Assembly: GCA_002898355.1 (NCBI GenBank)
Contig: BEHD01000005.1
Coordinates: forward strand, 34,411 to 98,410
Source: an archaeon HR01
Lineage (GTDB): Archaea; Thermoproteota; Nitrososphaeria_A; Caldarchaeales; Caldarchaeaceae
Direction of reading: 5' to 3'
Length of the DNA: 64,000 bases
Positions 1 through 62,618 of this stretch are shown here, piece by piece. Every line of letters starts with the position of its first letter. Positions within the stretch are counted from its first letter, which is position 1. The notes under the pieces were generated by a model. It ran no database searches. It saw only the letters and a program-made list of their open reading frames with translations, and was not told the origin of the DNA. The position numbers and the translations under genes are program-made.

Positions 1-1340
1 TCCTCACATCCTTGCAGAGGTGGCAGTCGGAGATTTCGAAGACATAGGTATCCTCATCTTTCTCCACTATTGATATGTCCAGGTCCCAGCCGGTCTTCAG
101 GGTTAGAGCCACTATCTTGGGTAGGTGTTCAGGCTTAAAGACCGTGTAGGGTGTCCCCTCCAGTATCTTCACATACTTGAGGGCCGTCTCCCTGGCCGAG
201 AGCTCGCCGAAAAACCTAGTGGACTGCTGAACTTCAAGCTTGAGGTCAGGCCTATCCCCGAAGACAAAGTCTACCACGTTTTTCATAGCGGTCAGAACCG
301 CTATGTGGGCGTCTAGGGGGACGGTTCTAACCCTGCTACCTATAAAGCCTCTGGACATCCTAATGAGCTTCAGGGATAGGGATGAAGGTATTGAGAGTAG
401 CAGACGGCTTTTCAGCTTCAGAGAGTTCCTCTGCCCAAGCTTAGGCTCAGGCTCCACCTCCACCAGCTTGACCATCCCGGCCAAAACCCATCGGGACAGC
501 TTCTCCACAATCTCATCCCATCTATCGGGGAAGAGCTGCCTAACCTCCGAGACCCTACGGCCGTTCAAAGACGTCAGCAGCAGATAGTCGTTGAAGCTGA
601 TATTCTCGATGCTCACCTCCTTCTTCTCTATTACGTAGCCCTCCGAACGCTCCGTCAGAGCCCTCAAAATCTCCTCAGGGCTGGCCGGGCCTGGAAGCTT
701 GTCGATAAACTGGCCCTCCCACTCGATGAGGAGGCTGCCGCCCACGAGCTTGTACTGGAAGGTTTTGAGGTGGTATTGGGGGTCGCATACCCTTATCGGC
801 GTGAAATAGTAGTTGAAGATGTTCTCCTTCCTCACCACAGATATCTCCAACACACCGTCCAGCACAGCCATCAGCTTCTTCTCCAAATCCTCAAAGGTCC
901 CCTTGGGCAGCAGGTAGAACTCCAGATGGTTGGTCTGGGCCACGTCTTTCTTCCAAATCTCGAGGAGCCGGAGCACCTCGTCGGAGCCCCTCCTTATCAA
1001 AAGCTCAGGCAGATAGCTGTGGACCAAGACCCTGCTCTGGATAGTCCTCCTCAGCTGATTGACCTGTATAGAGACATCCTGAAGCGATTCAAGGGATATG
1101 GCTATCCTGCTCTTCTCAGGGACGGCATAGTGGGATGAGTGTATCTCGGTAAGCATCTCAGGGTCTCTAAACAGTGTTTTAATCAGGTTCCGGCCCTCCG
1201 AGAAGGTCTCGTCAAGCACTAGGACAGACATGCCGGGGTAGAGATGGACTATGTGGTCGAAGAGGGAGTGGCCGGTATATATTCGGGCCTCATGCACAGC
1301 TGTATGGGAGCCTCCTATATCCCCGCCCTGTAGATGCATT
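1..1340 (-). CDS. Hypothetical protein, truncated at the window edge. The N-terminus (MHLQGGDIGGSHTAVHEARIYTGHSLFDHIVHLYPGMSVLVLDE...) lies near 1340. The C-terminal part ends ...EISDCHLCKDVR, possibly a V4R-like Cys pair
   Basis: My own minus-strand translation gives one long open frame across 1..1340. The plus-strand ORFs listed here (125..316, 240..587, 770..1138) are short and look like antisense artefacts. No confident family assignment. Confidence 0.35.
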
Positions 1341-6543: not shown

Positions 6544-6688
6544 CAGCCATCCTCCAAAACCGGTTTCGGAAATAAATCTTTGCCATCCCAGTAAAATCTG
6601 GCCCCCGTTAGTGTGGCCGCCTCTTATAACAAGGGCCTACCCACATTATTATCGGTTTATATTCTGGCCGGTGACGGATAGGTGGTAG

Positions 6689-7270
6689 ATGCCGAGAAAA
6701 GGCAGGAACGGTGGAAGGAACGTTTTCAGAGTCCTTATACCCATCATACCCGCCGCATTACTCGTGGCTTTCATAGTCTACCTCATAACGATACCTCCCA
6801 ACCCGCCTCCCACAACAGTTCCCACCACGGCCAGCCAAGGTGATTTGGCGCCGGACTTCACCCTCAGAATCATAGACGGCGAGGGGTTGAAAGACCAGTC
6901 ATTCTCACTATCCGAAGTGAAGGGGAGACCGATCTTCATCGACTTCATCCATGAATGGTGCCCCCACTGCAACAACATGGCCAGCACAATTGACAGGCTT
7001 CACAGCCAATACGGCGATAGAGTGTTCTTCATCACCGTCGCAGGAAGCTCCAACACCACACCCGAGAAGACCGCCGAATATATTAGACGCCATCATATCT
7101 CCTGGACAACGGTCTACGACGACGGATTGAATGTCTTCAGACAGTTCGGCGTCCGTGGAACACCGACCTATATTGTCATCGGCCCTAACGGGATAATAGT
7201 AGGTAAGCTCGAGGGTGAGCAGCCATACACAGTATTGGAGCAGCTAGTCAAGAACGTAATAGGCGGCTGA
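6689..7270 (+). CDS. Membrane-anchored thioredoxin-like thiol-disulfide oxidoreductase (TlpA/ResA/DsbE-like)
   Basis: N-terminal signal anchor (VLIPIIPAALLVAFIVYLITI) and a WCPHC active-site motif in a thioredoxin fold. Confidence 0.65.
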   Translation: MPRKGRNGGRNVFRVLIPIIPAALLVAFIVYLITIPPNPPPTTVPTTASQGDLAPDFTLRIIDGEGLKDQSFSLSEVKGRPIFIDFIHEWCPHCNNMASTIDRLHSQYGDRVFFITVAGSSNTTPEKTAEYIRRHHISWTTVYDDGLNVFRQFGVRGTPTYIVIGPNGIIVGKLEGEQPYTVLEQLVKNVIGG

Positions 7271-7674
7271 GAAGCATCTACCTGACGTCAGCACTTCTAT
7301 CAGCCGCAGGCCTACTACTCTCAATATATCTAACCCTTCTGCCACCGCCAACCTTCTGCGATATCAACAGCTTCTTCTCATGCGACACCGTTCTCTCAAG
7401 CCCCTACGCCAAGATAGGCGGCATACCCACAGCCTTCCTAGGGGTTGCCTGGTTCGCAGCAGCTACAGCACTTTCACCACTATCCATCAGGTCCGCCAGA
7501 GCCTCGAAAACCCTCCTAACGCTGTCAGTGTTCGCAGCCGCAGGCGTGTCGGTGCTGGTCTATGTCGAGCTCGCCCTGATAGGCTCAGTATGTCTGCTAT
7601 GCACAGCAGCCCACCTCCTAGGCGTGGGTGTGCTGGCCACATCCATAGTAGGTCTGAGGTCTAGCCGCGTCTGA
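7267..7674 (+). CDS. VKOR (vitamin K epoxide reductase)-family membrane oxidoreductase. Open frame with no ATG/GTG/TTG at its 5' end. It overlaps the stop of the upstream thioredoxin-like gene in another frame.
   Basis: My translation: LRSIYLTSALLSAAGLLLSIYLTLLPPPTFCDINSFFSCDTVLSSPYAKIGGIPTAFLGVAWF...GSVCLLCTAAHLL. It has the VKOR loop Cys pair (Cx7C), the S.YA..GIP.A.LG motif and the TM4 CxxC (CLLC). It is missing from the ORF track because it lacks a canonical start. Confidence 0.5.
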   Translation: MRSIYLTSALLSAAGLLLSIYLTLLPPPTFCDINSFFSCDTVLSSPYAKIGGIPTAFLGVAWFAAATALSPLSIRSARASKTLLTLSVFAAAGVSVLVYVELALIGSVCLLCTAAHLLGVGVLATSIVGLRSSRV

Positions 7675-8017
7675 CAGCCGATAGGGATAGGGATGCTGCA
7701 CTGGCCGCCACAACGAAGAAGGAGAGGAATAGGTGGATTGCTTTCGCAACCTCAGGCCCTTCGGCGAATATCACCAGCCCGAAGACACCCTGTATGATGT
7801 ATAGGGCTAGGGTGAAGGAGACATCGTTGGCTGACGTGTGCCCCGATTTCCTGGCCGAATAAACAACACCCAGCAGTATCAGGAATGTGAGGAAGCCGAG
7901 GCCGACGTGGCCGAGGGTGTAGAGCTCACCCTCAACAAGCTTCAGATTGAATGCGATACCCTGAGCGAGCTGCAGGATTGTAAGGAGGGTCACTAGGCCC
8001 AAGGCTCTGGTTATCAT
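7661..8017 (-). CDS. Small integral membrane protein (3-4 TM), unknown function
   Basis: Hydrophobic 118-aa ORF. Confidence 0.35.
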   Translation of the reverse strand: MITRALGLVTLLTILQLAQGIAFNLKLVEGELYTLGHVGLGFLTFLILLGVVYSARKSGHTSANDVSFTLALYIIQGVFGLVIFAEGPEVAKAIHLFLSFFVVAASAASLSLSAVRRG

Positions 8018-8170: not shown

Positions 8171-9649
8171 GTGGTTGAGGACATGTTCCCGGCATACACC
8201 GACGCAGGGTTAAAGCCCTGGAGCTTCACCAAGGAGCAGGTACTGGAGATAATCAAGAAGGAGGGTGTTAGATTCATAGACCTGCAGTTTACGGACCTGC
8301 CCGGTAAGCTCCAGCATATAACAATCTCCTCCGGCTACCTTGACGCTGAGATGTTCTCCGAGGGCGTGCCAAAACTGGACGGCTCTTCGATAAGGGGCTT
8401 CGCAGAGATCTACGAGTCGGATATGCTTCTCAGGCCAGACCCAACCACCTTCGCAGTTCTGCCTTGGAGCCTCGACGGAAAGAAGACCGCCAGGATGATA
8501 TGTGATGTATACCGGGGGTTCGGGGGTGGAAGGTTCTCGAGAGACCCGAGGCTGGCAGCCCAGAGGGCTGAGGAATATCTGCGGGCCCAAGGATATGAGC
8601 CGTCGTACTGGGGTCCCGAGATAGAGTTCTTCGTCTTCGACAGAGTTAGCTGGGATGTCTCCACACCCTACCGGGGGCAGAGCTACGTGATAGAATCCCG
8701 GGAGGCCCCCTGGGAGGTGGACGGCAAATCGTTCCCAATCAGGTTTAAGGAGGGGTACTATCCCACGCCGCCGCAGGATACGTTGATGGAGTATAGGAAC
8801 GAGGTCTGCAGGCTCTTAACAGACTACTTCGGCGTTGAGGTTGATGCCCACCACCACGAGGTCGCCACCGCAGGGCAGTGCGAGATAGACATGAAGTATG
8901 ACACGTTGACGAGGATGGCTGACAAAGCCCAGACATACAAATATGTTACGAAGAATGTGGCCAGCCAGATGGGGATGGTGGCAACCTTCATGCCCAAACC
9001 CATCTTCGGCGATAACGCCTCCGGGATGCATATCCACATAAGCCTCTGGAGCGGTAGCAAAAACCTGTTCTACGACCCTGACGATGACTACGCCGAGCTG
9101 AGCCAGCTGGGCCGCTATTTTGTGGGAGGACTACTAGAGCATAGCAGAGCTCTCACAGCAATCGTCACACCCACCACCAACTCATTTAGGAGGCTGGTGC
9201 CTGGTTATGAGGCCCCTGTCTTTATCGCATGGAGCAGGTCCAACCGCTCAGCCAACATAAGAATACCCGTCTACCAGAGGGGTGCTGGCTCAGCCAAGAG
9301 GAAGAGGGTTGAGTTTAGGACGCCTGACCCATCGTGTAACCCCTACCTATGTTTTGCAGCGTTAGCTGCTGCCGGTGTTGACGGCATCAAGAAGAAGATG
9401 GACCCGGGAGACCCCGTCAACGAGGACATCTACAGGCTCAGCAGCGAGAAGAGGAGGGAGCTAAACATTAGAGAGCTACCCGGCAGCTTGAAGGAGGCGG
9501 TGGAATCTCTGGAGAGCGATAGGGAGTTTCTGAAACCCGTCATGGCCGACGACCTAGTGGATACGCTGATGGAGCTGGAGATGAAAAACTTCGTAGAGGT
9601 GAGCTCTAGGCCCCATCCATACGAGTTCTATCTCTACGCAGACGTTTAA
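8171..9649 (+). CDS. glnA: Glutamine synthetase type I
   Basis: FMPKPIFGDNASGMHIHISLW and other GS signatures; 492 aa. Confidence 0.9.
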   Translation: MVEDMFPAYTDAGLKPWSFTKEQVLEIIKKEGVRFIDLQFTDLPGKLQHITISSGYLDAEMFSEGVPKLDGSSIRGFAEIYESDMLLRPDPTTFAVLPWSLDGKKTARMICDVYRGFGGGRFSRDPRLAAQRAEEYLRAQGYEPSYWGPEIEFFVFDRVSWDVSTPYRGQSYVIESREAPWEVDGKSFPIRFKEGYYPTPPQDTLMEYRNEVCRLLTDYFGVEVDAHHHEVATAGQCEIDMKYDTLTRMADKAQTYKYVTKNVASQMGMVATFMPKPIFGDNASGMHIHISLWSGSKNLFYDPDDDYAELSQLGRYFVGGLLEHSRALTAIVTPTTNSFRRLVPGYEAPVFIAWSRSNRSANIRIPVYQRGAGSAKRKRVEFRTPDPSCNPYLCFAALAAAGVDGIKKKMDPGDPVNEDIYRLSSEKRRELNIRELPGSLKEAVESLESDREFLKPVMADDLVDTLMELEMKNFVEVSSRPHPYEFYLYADV

Positions 9650-9699: not shown

Positions 9700-9933
9700 A
9701 TGCCATTAGCTTTTCTACTCCTCAACGTAAAACCCGGCAAGGAGGAAGACGTCTTAAAGGCGCTCGCCGAGATTAAGGAGGTGAAAGAAGCCCATCGGGT
9801 ATACGGTGTCTATGACACCCTCGTGAAGGTTCAGGCGGATACAATGGAGAATCTCAAGAGTATATTAAATAATAGGGTGAAGAGGATCGAGAACATCACC
9901 TCAGTCGTCTCCCTCATAGTGACCTCGGGTTGA
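9700..9933 (+). CDS. Stand-alone RAM/ACT-like (Lrp/AsnC C-terminal ligand-binding) domain protein, 77 aa
   Basis: The beta-alpha-beta-beta-alpha-beta pattern LLLNVKPGKEEDVLKALAEIKEVKEAHRVYGVYDTLVKV is typical of an AsnC-type RAM domain; no HTH is present. Confidence 0.5.
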   Translation: MPLAFLLLNVKPGKEEDVLKALAEIKEVKEAHRVYGVYDTLVKVQADTMENLKSILNNRVKRIENITSVVSLIVTSG

Positions 9934-32853: not shown

Positions 32854-32927
32854 TGGACCGGGAGGGATTTGAACCCTCGACCTCCGGTGTGCAAAACCGG
32901 CGTTCTCCCAGACTGAACTACCGGCCC
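32854..32927 (-). tRNA. tRNA-Ala (anticodon TGC), 74 nt, CCA not encoded
   Basis: Hand-folded cloverleaf: acceptor GGGCCGG/CCGGTCC with the G3:U70 Ala identity pair; D stem GTTC/GAAC; anticodon stem CCGGT/ACCGG with loop TTTGCAC; T arm GAGGG-TTCAAAT-CCCTC; discriminator A. Confidence 0.85.
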
Positions 32928-62517: not shown

Positions 62518-62618
62518 GGGGGCGTAGCCGAGCAAGGCCAAGGCGTCGGGCTCCAGATCACACGGCCAAGGTCAGAGGCGCAACCCGAAGACCGTGGGTT
62601 CAAGTCCCACCGCCCCCA
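62518..62618 (+). tRNA. Intron-containing tRNA, most likely tRNA-Trp (anticodon CCA) with a 26-nt intron in or next to the anticodon loop
   Basis: Hand fold: acceptor GGGGGCG/CGCCCCC, discriminator A. D arm GCCG-AGCAAGGCCA-AGGC. Anticodon stem TCGGG/CCCGA separated by 33 nt beginning CTCCAGA (the Trp-type loop). Variable loop AGACC. T arm GTGGG-TTCAAGT-CCCAC. A canonical BHB could not be drawn by eye. Confidence 0.6.

What the first reader, a model, noticed from the sequence alone, without database searches (positions are those of the whole stretch)
6689..7674. Thioredoxin-like oxidoreductase followed by a VKOR-family gene that lacks any canonical start codon and overlaps in another frame
What the sequence shows:
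- A membrane-anchored thioredoxin-like protein (WCPHC active site) ends at 7270.
- An open frame begins immediately in a different reading frame. It opens after a TGA at 7216-7218 and runs to 7674.
- That frame encodes a clear VKOR domain: TM1, a Cx7C loop (CDINSFFSC), the S.YA..GIP motif and a CLLC redox motif in TM4.
- It has no ATG, GTG or TTG before the first TM helix, so the ORF track missed it.

Known background:
- VKOR with a thioredoxin-like partner forms the DsbB-independent disulfide-generating system of some bacteria and of disulfide-rich hyperthermophilic crenarchaea.
- In known natural fusions the order is VKOR then Trx.

Here the order is Trx then VKOR, with a frame change exactly at the junction. 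Possible explanations:
- a sequencing indel
- a non-canonical initiation codon
- programmed frameshifting that makes a Trx-VKOR fusion. This would invert VKOR topology, which I consider unlikely.
Basis: partly seen in the sequence, partly recalled or inferred. Interest (0 to 1): 0.55.

Follow-up and report, generated by a model that had tools for sequence, protein, structure and literature searches.

The report
VKOR gene starting at CTG
A membrane enzyme gene (VKOR) that makes protein disulfide bonds is intact and conserved in a group of hot-spring archaea. It appears to begin at the rare start codon CTG, overlapping the stop codon of its partner gene, so gene finders miss or truncate it.

Summary
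A membrane-anchored thioredoxin-like gene (6689-7270, WCPHC) is followed by a complete VKOR gene in the -1 frame, ending at 7674. The VKOR frame has no ATG, GTG or TTG before its first helix.

- **Not an error or pseudogene.** The junction ggCTGAg recurs in an independent assembly of the same strain and in four other diverged lineages. VKOR is under purifying selection there (dN/dS 0.09-0.24).
- **Position of the CTG.** The CTG at 7267-7269 overlaps the upstream TGA stop. Relatives carry TTGA (one lineage) or ATGA (five outgroup lineages) at the homologous position. No other near-cognate codon is conserved.
- **No frameshift signal.** There is no slippery site, Shine-Dalgarno motif, internal promoter or unusual RNA structure. 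A fusion would also invert VKOR in the membrane.

Best reading: two separate proteins from one short-leader mRNA. VKOR would be translated from CUG by ribosomes that have just terminated on the thioredoxin gene, probably at a low level. This mechanism is inferred, not shown.

The enzyme pair is ordinary. The long-retained CUG start in an archaeal clade is the unusual part and explains a systematic annotation gap. Conservation of the C itself is not statistically exceptional. Interest is moderate.

The parts
6656..6663 (+). TATA-like box (TTTATATT) about 26-33 nt upstream of the Trx ATG. It implies a leaderless or very short-leader trx-vkor mRNA.
   Evidence: Read from the sequence. An A/T-rich TATA-like box sits at about the same distance upstream of the Trx ATG in the other clade lineages and several outgroups. 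Promoter function is inferred, not tested.
6689..7270 (+). Gene for a membrane-anchored thioredoxin-like (TlpA/ResA-type) oxidoreductase, 193 aa, ATG start, TGA stop.
   Evidence: ORF. Pfam AhpC-TSA/Redoxin/Thioredoxin hits. PDB sequence hits to ResA, TlpA, DsbE and DsbF. Orthologues at 46-99% identity.
6716..6808 (+). N-terminal signal-anchor helix of the Trx-like protein. It follows five K/R in residues 1-14 and precedes a Pro/Thr-rich linker.
   Evidence: Hydropathy and charge count. Orientation (N-terminus inside, Trx domain outside) is inferred from the positive-inside rule.
6956..6970 (+). WCPHC active site of the Trx-like protein.
   Evidence: Sister lineages have WCVHC or WCIHC.
7219..7266 (+). 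Stretch of the VKOR reading frame that is open but most likely not translated in that frame. It is the 3' end of the Trx gene.
   Evidence: In this stretch the Trx-frame residues are the conserved ones (LEGEQPY..LEQL), while the VKOR-frame residues are poorly conserved.
7267..7270 (+). CTGA junction. The proposed CTG start of VKOR (7267-7269) overlaps the TGA stop of Trx (7268-7270).
   Evidence: The homologous position is CTGA in 5 lineages, TTGA in 1 and ATGA in 5 outgroup lineages.
7267..7674 (+). VKOR gene, 135 aa if started at CTG. Four transmembrane helices.
   Evidence: Pfam VKOR E = 4e-20. NCBIfam 'VKOR family protein' models match at E = 5.9e-21 (75.3 bits), below their curated cut-offs of 120 bits or more. 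PDB profile hit to Synechococcus VKOR, E = 2e-11. AlphaFold model pLDDT 85; top 14 Foldseek hits are all VKORs, TM-score (query-normalised) 0.62-0.78. dN/dS 0.09-0.24.
7357..7383 (+). Loop cysteine pair, Cx7C (CDINSFFSC).
   Evidence: Both cysteines are invariant in alignment A1.
7396..7428 (+). SSPYAKIGGIP loop motif containing the conserved VKOR serine.
7591..7602 (+). CLLC redox motif at the start of TM4.
   Evidence: It aligns with the CxxC of Synechococcus VKOR.

Best explanation
The locus encodes two separate proteins from one operon. The first is a membrane-anchored, outward-facing thioredoxin-like oxidoreductase. The second is a four-helix VKOR that re-oxidises it using membrane quinone. 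Together they would form an extracytoplasmic disulfide-generating pair.

VKOR translation most likely begins at the CTG at 7267-7269, which shares three bases with the Trx stop codon (CTGA). Ribosomes finishing the Trx gene would re-initiate on the spot (termination-reinitiation coupling). This would explain why a weak near-cognate codon, with no Shine-Dalgarno motif and no promoter of its own, is sufficient. The likely consequence is that VKOR is made in strict dependence on Trx translation and in smaller amounts.

**Shown here**
- The identity and integrity of both genes.
- The absence of any canonical start codon.
- Positional homology of the CTG with TTG and ATG starts in relatives.
- Retention of CTG across a diverged clade, with VKOR under purifying selection.

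**Inferred**
- That CUG is the codon actually used.
- The reinitiation mechanism.
- Low VKOR output.
- The redox direction of the pair.
For: 1. **VKOR and Trx identity.** Supported.
2. **No canonical start.** There is no ATG/GTG/TTG between 7219 and 7527.
3. **Independent confirmation of the junction.**
   - The junction ggCTGAg is identical in an independent ENA assembly of a 99%-identical strain, L017.
   - CTGA is also present in four other lineages: L002/3/4/13; L014/18/19; L026; and L020-25, which comprises four NCBI MAGs and two Logan runs.
4. **Canonical starts at the same position in relatives.** The sister lineage L001 has TTGA. Five outgroup lineages have ATGA in the VKOR frame. Three others have ATG 10-12 nt after the TGA.
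5. **N-terminus length matches.** It agrees residue for residue with ATG-started relatives: LRSIY versus MKFLY and MKIFY.
6. **Phylogeny.** The neighbour-joining tree makes the CTGA/TTGA group monophyletic, with CTG the most parsimonious ancestral state.
7. **Purifying selection.** VKOR dN/dS is 0.09-0.24 between CTG lineages, with dS from 0.6 to above 2. This is the same range as Trx.
8. **No alternative start.** No other near-cognate codon is conserved. The ATA at 7225 is GTA in L020/L024.
9. **No independent initiation signals.** There is no SD-like motif, no TATA box upstream of the CTG, and no unusual RNA structure (z = -0.24).
10. **Overlaps are used elsewhere in this window.** Other -4 overlaps with ATG, GTG and TTG starts occur.
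11. **Literature on coupling.** Coupling at -4 overlaps by termination-reinitiation has been shown experimentally in an archaeon and in E. coli (PMC6728339, PMC10666635).
12. **Topology.** K/R residues cluster at the N-terminus, the TM2-TM3 loop and the C-terminus of VKOR, and at the N-terminus of Trx. This puts both active sites outside only if the proteins are separate.
Against: - There is no direct evidence of translation: no proteome, ribosome-profiling or transcript data.
- Conservation of the C itself is not statistically exceptional. About 25% of four-fold degenerate third positions are also identical in at least 5 of 6 lineages. Selection for CTG, as opposed to tolerance of it, is therefore not shown.
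- Reviews list only AUG, GUG and UUG as archaeal start codons (PMC7531240). I found no experimental demonstration of CUG initiation in archaea. Near-cognate initiation sites were seen by ribosome profiling in Haloferax volcanii but were set aside as possible false positives (PMC7261190).
- In lineage L002 an upstream in-frame GTG exists and could be used instead.
- One Sulfolobus gene pair with adjacent stop and start codons was reported as not coupled in vitro (cited in PMC6728339).
Confidence: 0.7

Rival explanations
1. Initiation occurs at a different non-canonical codon near the junction. Candidates are ATC 7276, CTG 7282, ATA 7225 and ATT 7234. In lineage L002 the upstream GTG could serve instead.
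For: These codons are in frame and lie before or at the start of TM1. ATA 7225 is present in most lineages. Reinitiating ribosomes are reported to pick the nearest usable start codon (Adhin and Van Duin, cited in PMC10666635).
Against: None is conserved across all lineages. ATA is GTA in L020/L024. ATT, ATC and the second CTG vary. ATA conservation is explained by the Pro-Tyr codons of the Trx frame. Only the CTG/TTG position is shared by all lineages and matches the ATG of the outgroups.
Confidence: 0.1
2. The VKOR frame is no longer translated in this clade. It would be a silenced gene or pseudogene that lost its start codon.
For: There is no canonical start. Gene callers skip or truncate the frame.
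Against: The frame is intact, at 134-135 codons, in all five CTG lineages, with all four cysteines kept. dN/dS is 0.09-0.24 at saturated dS, the same as the neighbouring Trx gene.
Confidence: 0.05
3. A programmed -1 ribosomal frameshift at the end of the Trx gene produces a Trx-VKOR fusion protein.
For: The VKOR frame is -1 relative to Trx and is open across the Trx stop codon.
Against: - No X XXY YYZ slippery heptamer exists. The last Trx codons differ between lineages (GGC GGC, AAA AGC, AAA GGC, GCA AGC) and cannot re-pair in the -1 frame.
- Downstream RNA structure is not exceptional, z = -0.24.
- Outgroups have plainly separate genes with spacers and their own ATG.
- A fusion would start VKOR TM1 from the outside. 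That inverts the enzyme against its own charge distribution and separates its active site from the Trx domain.
Confidence: 0.03
4. A sequencing or assembly error (indel or base miscall) removed an ordinary start codon or split a single gene.
For: A single metagenome-derived sequence could carry such an error.
Against: The same CTGA junction and frame relationship occur in an independent ENA assembly (L017). They also occur in three JGI samples (L002-4), in JGI plus ENA assemblies (L014/L018), and in four NCBI MAGs plus two Logan runs (L020-25).
Confidence: 0.01

Closest known systems
Bacterial VKOR with a fused thioredoxin-like domain (Synechococcus sp., PDB 3KP9, 4NV2, 4NV5, 4NV6)
   Same: It has the same four-helix VKOR core, loop cysteine pair, conserved loop serine and CxxC at TM4. 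Sequence profile E = 2e-11; Foldseek TM-score about 0.75; 29-32% identity. Electrons would flow from an outward-facing Trx-like CxxC to VKOR and then to quinone. That pathway is established for this family; here it is inferred.
   Different: - Here the Trx-like partner is a separate protein with its own N-terminal anchor, encoded upstream of VKOR. In Synechococcus it is fused after a fifth helix.
- The Trx anchor helix occupies the topological place of that fifth helix (inference).
- The partner is of the TlpA/ResA type by sequence.
VKOR plus separate DsbA-like or Trx-like partner operons of Actinobacteria and Crenarchaeota (VKOR phylogeny, PMC4555120)
   Same: A single-domain prokaryotic VKOR without a C-terminal Trx domain, used in place of DsbB. 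Archaeal VKORs lacking fused Trx domains are described in PMC4555120.
   Different: This clade, relatives of Candidatus Caldarchaeum within Nitrososphaerota, is not mentioned in that survey. The partner here has a ResA/TlpA-like fold with a C-[PVI]-H-C motif. The start codon is non-canonical.
Translational coupling by termination-reinitiation at ATGA-type -4 overlaps (Huber et al. 2019 and 2023; PMC6728339, PMC10666635)
   Same: Co-directional genes with a 4-nt stop/start overlap and a functionally interacting pair of products. In some tested pairs the SD motif contributed little to reinitiation efficiency.
   Different: The overlapping start here is CTG, not ATG, GTG or TTG. CTGA does not occur anywhere in the text of PMC6728339. 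Coupling has not been tested for this locus.
Rare CUG start codons in prokaryotes
   Same: It is a near-cognate codon differing from AUG at the first base, like GUG and UUG. CTG is among the initiators listed for translation table 11 (my own knowledge).
   Different: Such starts are extremely rare. Recorded switches to CUG were 2 of 61,358 ancestral AUG starts and 1 of 2,468 UUG starts (PMC5622118). Here the CTG is retained across a whole diverged archaeal clade.

Membership tests
VKOR family (Pfam PF07884) | Significant match to the family profile over its full length | tested here: met
   E = 4.2e-20, 72.7 bits against a cut-off of 27.5, profile positions 4-133 of 134.
VKOR family (Pfam PF07884) | Four-helix transmembrane bundle with the VKOR fold | tested here: met
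   AlphaFold2 model pLDDT 85, pTM 0.77, four long helices. The top 14 PDB matches are all VKORs, TM-score (query-normalised) 0.62-0.78.
VKOR family (Pfam PF07884) | Four conserved cysteines (loop pair plus CxxC at TM4) and a conserved loop Ser/Thr | tested here: met
   C31, C39, C109 and C112 are invariant in alignment A1, as is S45 of the S44-S45 doublet. They align with Synechococcus VKOR.
VKOR family (Pfam PF07884) | Quinone-dependent re-oxidation of a Trx-like or DsbA-like partner | not testable with these tools
   This needs biochemistry or complementation of an E. coli dsbB mutant.
TlpA/ResA-type membrane-anchored thioredoxin-like oxidoreductases | Thioredoxin fold with a CxxC motif, N-terminal membrane anchor, extracytoplasmic domain | tested here: met
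   Pfam Redoxin/AhpC-TSA/Thioredoxin hits. PDB hits to ResA, TlpA, DsbE and DsbF. Anchor helix and N-terminal K/R cluster. Orientation is inferred.
TlpA/ResA-type membrane-anchored thioredoxin-like oxidoreductases | Equivalog-level identity with ResA, CcmG or TlpA (reductant role in cytochrome c maturation) | tested here: not met
   All NCBIfam scores lie far below the curated cut-offs; ResA scores 58.6 bits against 170. The CPHC motif and conserved pairing with VKOR suggest an oxidant role instead (inference).
Termination-reinitiation coupled gene pair | Co-directional genes with a -4 or -1 stop/start overlap | tested here: met
   CTGA at 7267-7270. The overlap position is conserved as NTGA in 11 of 14 lineages.
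Termination-reinitiation coupled gene pair | Downstream translation depends on upstream translation | not testable with these tools
   This needs a reporter assay with a premature stop codon in the upstream gene.
Programmed -1 ribosomal frameshift site | Slippery heptamer X XXY YYZ at the shift site | tested here: not met
   None is present, and the site sequence is not conserved between lineages.
Programmed -1 ribosomal frameshift site | Stable stimulatory RNA structure just downstream | tested here: not met
   MFE -20.2 kcal/mol against a shuffle mean of -19.5, z = -0.24.
Non-canonical (CUG) initiation codon | No canonical start that could give a functional product, and positional homology with canonical starts in orthologues | tested here: met
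Non-canonical (CUG) initiation codon | Protein N-terminus or initiating ribosome mapped to the codon | not testable with these tools
   No proteomic or ribosome-profiling data are available.

The most novel reading that the evidence does not exclude
In this clade of Caldarchaeum-related archaea, post-termination ribosomes routinely re-initiate on CUG at a CUGA overlap. The weak codon has been kept since the clade's origin as a built-in device that holds the catalytic VKOR at a low, Trx-dependent level. To my knowledge this would be the first evolutionarily conserved CUG-initiated gene described in Archaea. It would suggest that termination-reinitiation relaxes start-codon selection in archaea.
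Probability: 0.45. Interest if true: 0.55.

Novelty: new variant of a known kind. Interest (0 to 1): 0.4.

Why it matters
- **Annotation gap.** Standard gene finders drop or truncate this VKOR in a whole archaeal clade. No gene was called in L017 or L020-25, and only 63-76 aa fragments in L018/19 and L026. In several NCBI MAGs a spurious antisense ORF was called instead. Genome-based inferences would therefore wrongly score these organisms as lacking a disulfide-generating enzyme.
- **A natural test case.** The locus can show whether archaeal ribosomes initiate on CUG, and whether termination-reinitiation relaxes start-codon choice. Sister lineages already provide TTG and ATG versions of the same junction as controls.
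- **What is not new.** The enzyme system itself is conventional.

Tried and rejected
- **Sequencing indel:** rejected by independent assemblies.
- **Pseudogene:** rejected by dN/dS.
- **Frameshift fusion:** rejected. There is no slippery site and no stimulatory structure, and topology argues against it.
- **Alternative near-cognate starts upstream** (ATA 7225, ATT 7234): not conserved.
- **Internal promoter for VKOR:** no TATA-like box lies 25-35 nt upstream of 7267.
- **SD motif:** none at the proper spacing in any CTG lineage.
- **Test for selection on the C of CTG:** not significant. About 25% of four-fold sites are equally conserved, so I do not claim positive maintenance of CTG.
- **Scan of the window for other genes lacking canonical starts**: the long open frames with late first starts mostly lie within longer ORFs, but I verified only one candidate. 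Frame 401-1138 lies opposite a minus-strand gene that runs off the window edge.
- **Literature searches for experimentally shown CUG starts in archaea**: found none.
- **Extra lineages P0015 and P0035**:
  - L031 has a canonical ATG 19 nt after the Trx stop.
  - L030 shows an ATGA overlap at the Trx stop, but the contig ends before its VKOR could be read.

Full report
**1. What is in the sequence**

The window carries an ATG-started ORF at 6689-7270 (193 aa).
- It has a basic N-terminus (five K/R in 14 residues), one hydrophobic anchor helix and a Pro/Thr-rich linker.
- These are followed by a thioredoxin-fold domain with WCPHC at 6956-6970.
- Pfam matches AhpC-TSA, Redoxin and Thioredoxin, E = 1e-16 to 5e-10.
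- The closest solved proteins by sequence are ResA, TlpA, DsbE and DsbF-type extracytoplasmic oxidoreductases.
- No NCBIfam equivalog cut-off is reached.

In the -1 frame, an open frame runs from 7219 (after TGA at 7216-7218) to the TGA at 7672-7674.
- It matches Pfam VKOR over nearly the whole profile, E = 4.2e-20.
- It also matches the Synechococcus VKOR structures, E = 2e-11.
- An AlphaFold2 model (pLDDT 85) has four long helices. Its 14 best PDB matches are all VKORs.
- The loop pair C31/C39 (Cx7C, 7357-7383), the serine doublet S44-S45 within the SSPYAKIGGIP motif (7396-7428) and CLLC (7591-7602) are all present.
- The first ATG/GTG/TTG in this frame is GTG at 7528. It would give a useless 48-aa fragment.

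**2. The junction**

The sequence is ...GGC GGC TGA in the Trx frame and ...CGG CTG AGA in the VKOR frame. CTG (7267-7269) overlaps the TGA stop (7268-7270) by three bases. This is the familiar NTGA '-4 overlap' of co-translated prokaryotic genes, with C in the first position.

**3. Relatives**

A protein search with the VKOR frame found only five hits. A search with the Trx protein found many more.

Fetching the DNA showed why. In the closest lineages the VKOR gene is simply not called (L017, L020-25), or is truncated to 63-76 aa (L018/19, L026). In several NCBI MAGs a spurious antisense ORF is annotated in its place.

Synteny is conserved in every locus long enough to show it: Trx(+), VKOR(+), a 117-120 aa membrane protein(-), then glnA(+).

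The base before the Trx TGA, in the VKOR frame, is as follows:

| Junction | Lineages |
|---|---|
| CTGA | window and L017 (an independent ENA assembly, 99% identical Trx); L002/3/4/13 (three JGI samples); L014/18/19; L026; L020-25 (four NCBI MAGs and two Logan runs) |
| TTGA | L001 |
| ATGA | L005/6/16, L007, L008, L015, L011 |
| TGA followed 10-12 nt later by ATG | L009, L012, L027-29 |

The N-terminus implied by the CTG has the same length as those of ATG-started relatives: L-R-S-I-Y versus M-K-F-L-Y in L007 and M-K-I-F-Y in L009.

A neighbour-joining tree of the concatenated proteins makes the CTGA/TTGA lineages one clade, with L001 (TTG) sister to the window lineage. CTG at the base of the clade, with one C-to-T change in L001, is the most parsimonious history.

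**4. Is the gene alive?**

Between CTG lineages the VKOR has 63-86% amino-acid identity and dN/dS of 0.09-0.24. Synonymous divergence runs from 0.6 to beyond saturation. These values are indistinguishable from the neighbouring Trx gene, at 0.08-0.23.

Length (134-135 codons) and all catalytic residues are kept. The gene is therefore translated and functional in these organisms.

**5. Which codon?**

Upstream of the CTG, the VKOR-frame residues are poorly conserved, whereas the Trx-frame residues are conserved (LEGEQPY..LEQL).

The only other widely shared near-cognate codon is ATA at 7225. It is forced by the Pro-Tyr codons of Trx, and it is GTA in L020/L024. Downstream near-cognates (ATC 7276, CTG 7282) are not conserved either.

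Lineage L002 has gained an in-frame GTG 48 nt upstream, through a Gln-to-Trp change in Trx. That is why Prodigal called a 151-aa product there.

**6. Signals**

- No SD-like motif lies at the proper distance in any CTG lineage.
- No TATA-like box lies 25-35 nt upstream of 7267, whereas a conserved one lies 26-33 nt upstream of the Trx ATG. The two genes therefore probably share one leaderless or short-leader mRNA.
- The RNA around the junction folds no better than shuffled controls, z = -0.24.
- There is no slippery heptamer, and the last Trx codons differ between lineages.

**7. Topology**

In VKOR the K/R residues sit at the N-terminus (R2), in the TM2-TM3 loop (three) and at the C-terminus (two). 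The long cysteine loop carries one. By the positive-inside rule both ends are cytoplasmic, and the cysteine loop and CLLC face outward.

The Trx protein has its N-terminus inside and its domain outside. As separate proteins the two active sites meet outside the cell. A fusion would invert VKOR. I infer that the Trx anchor helix occupies the topological place of the fifth helix that links VKOR to its fused Trx domain in Synechococcus.

**8. Mechanism proposed**

Ribosomes terminating at the Trx UGA would re-initiate at the overlapping CUG.
- Termination-reinitiation at -4 overlaps has been shown experimentally in Haloferax volcanii and E. coli. It requires overlaps or very short distances, and it is enriched among interacting proteins (PMC6728339, PMC10666635).
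- Other -4 overlaps with ATG, GTG and TTG starts occur in this window.
- A weak start would make VKOR, the catalytic recycling enzyme, less abundant than its partner. This is inference.

**9. Caveats**

- There are no expression data.
- The C is a synonymous third position of the last Trx codon (GGC or AGC). A change to T would create TTG at no cost to Trx, yet C is kept in five of six lineages. However, about 25% of four-fold sites are equally conserved in these six lineages. This shows long-term tolerance of CTG, not selection for it.
- Reviews list only AUG, GUG and UUG as archaeal starts (PMC7531240).
- Near-cognate initiation sites were seen by ribosome profiling in H. volcanii but were set aside (PMC7261190).
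- Switches to CUG are extremely rare in prokaryotes: 2 of 61,358 ancestral AUG starts and 1 of 2,468 UUG starts (PMC5622118).

**10. Verdict**

The enzyme pair is a conventional DsbB-independent disulfide system. It belongs to an uncultured clade related to Candidatus Caldarchaeum within Nitrososphaerota, going by the names of the MAGs that carry the nearest relatives.

The unusual feature is a start codon that is CTG in a whole clade, placed in a stop/start overlap. I rate it a new variant of a known kind, of moderate interest. It has a practical consequence for annotation and offers a clean experimental handle on archaeal start-codon selection during reinitiation.

Noticed in passing
window 7661-8017 (-): A 118-aa, cysteine-free membrane protein converges on VKOR and overlaps its 3' end by 14 nt. 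A 117-120 aa gene sits in the same position in every orthologous locus long enough to show it. It has no Pfam hit above threshold, only a weak COX15-CtaA (heme A synthase) match (E = 0.0027, 17.3 bits against a cut-off of 29.9), and no NCBIfam hit. It might be a compact heme A synthase-like protein.
   Followed up: partly
L017 1880-2271; L020 3082-3467 (also L021-L025); L018/L019 3259-3489; L026 919-1110: Public gene calls omit or truncate the VKOR in the CTG lineages. In NCBI MAGs GCA_038869585.1, GCA_038849805.1, GCA_038832055.1 and GCA_038890235.1 an antisense ORF of 92-101 aa is called across the VKOR gene instead.
   Followed up: yes
L002 3001-3003 (also L003, L004, L013): In this lineage a Gln-to-Trp change in the Trx frame (CAG to TGG) creates an in-frame GTG 48 nt upstream of the CTG. 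Gene callers therefore report a 151-aa VKOR with a 16-residue non-conserved extension.
   Followed up: yes
window 6956-6970 and the equivalent positions in L001-L029: The Trx active-site dipeptide varies between lineages. It is CPHC in the window and L001, CIHC in L002, CVHC in most others, and CGFC or CRFC in L009 and L012. This suggests differences in redox potential.
   Followed up: no
window 62518-62618 (+): Rfam finds a tRNA spanning 101 nt that ARAGORN does not report. It is probably an intron-containing archaeal tRNA. A normal tRNA-Ala(TGC) lies at 32854-32927 (-).
   Followed up: no
window 9930-9933 (+), about 17261 (-), about 27434 (-), about 29742 (-): Other co-directional junctions with 4-nt stop/start overlaps occur in this window: TTGA twice, GTGA once and ATGA once. 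Coupled weak starts therefore seem common in this genome. The gene models used were crude.
   Followed up: partly
window 1-1230 (-): A long minus-strand reading frame (over 409 codons) runs off the left edge of the window. It explains the plus-strand shadow frame at 401-1138, which lacks an early start codon.
   Followed up: partly
window 8171-9649 (+): A glutamine synthetase gene (GTG start, 492 aa) lies just downstream. The position is conserved in the loci long enough to show it and, in several relatives, is followed by an AsnC-type regulator.
   Followed up: no
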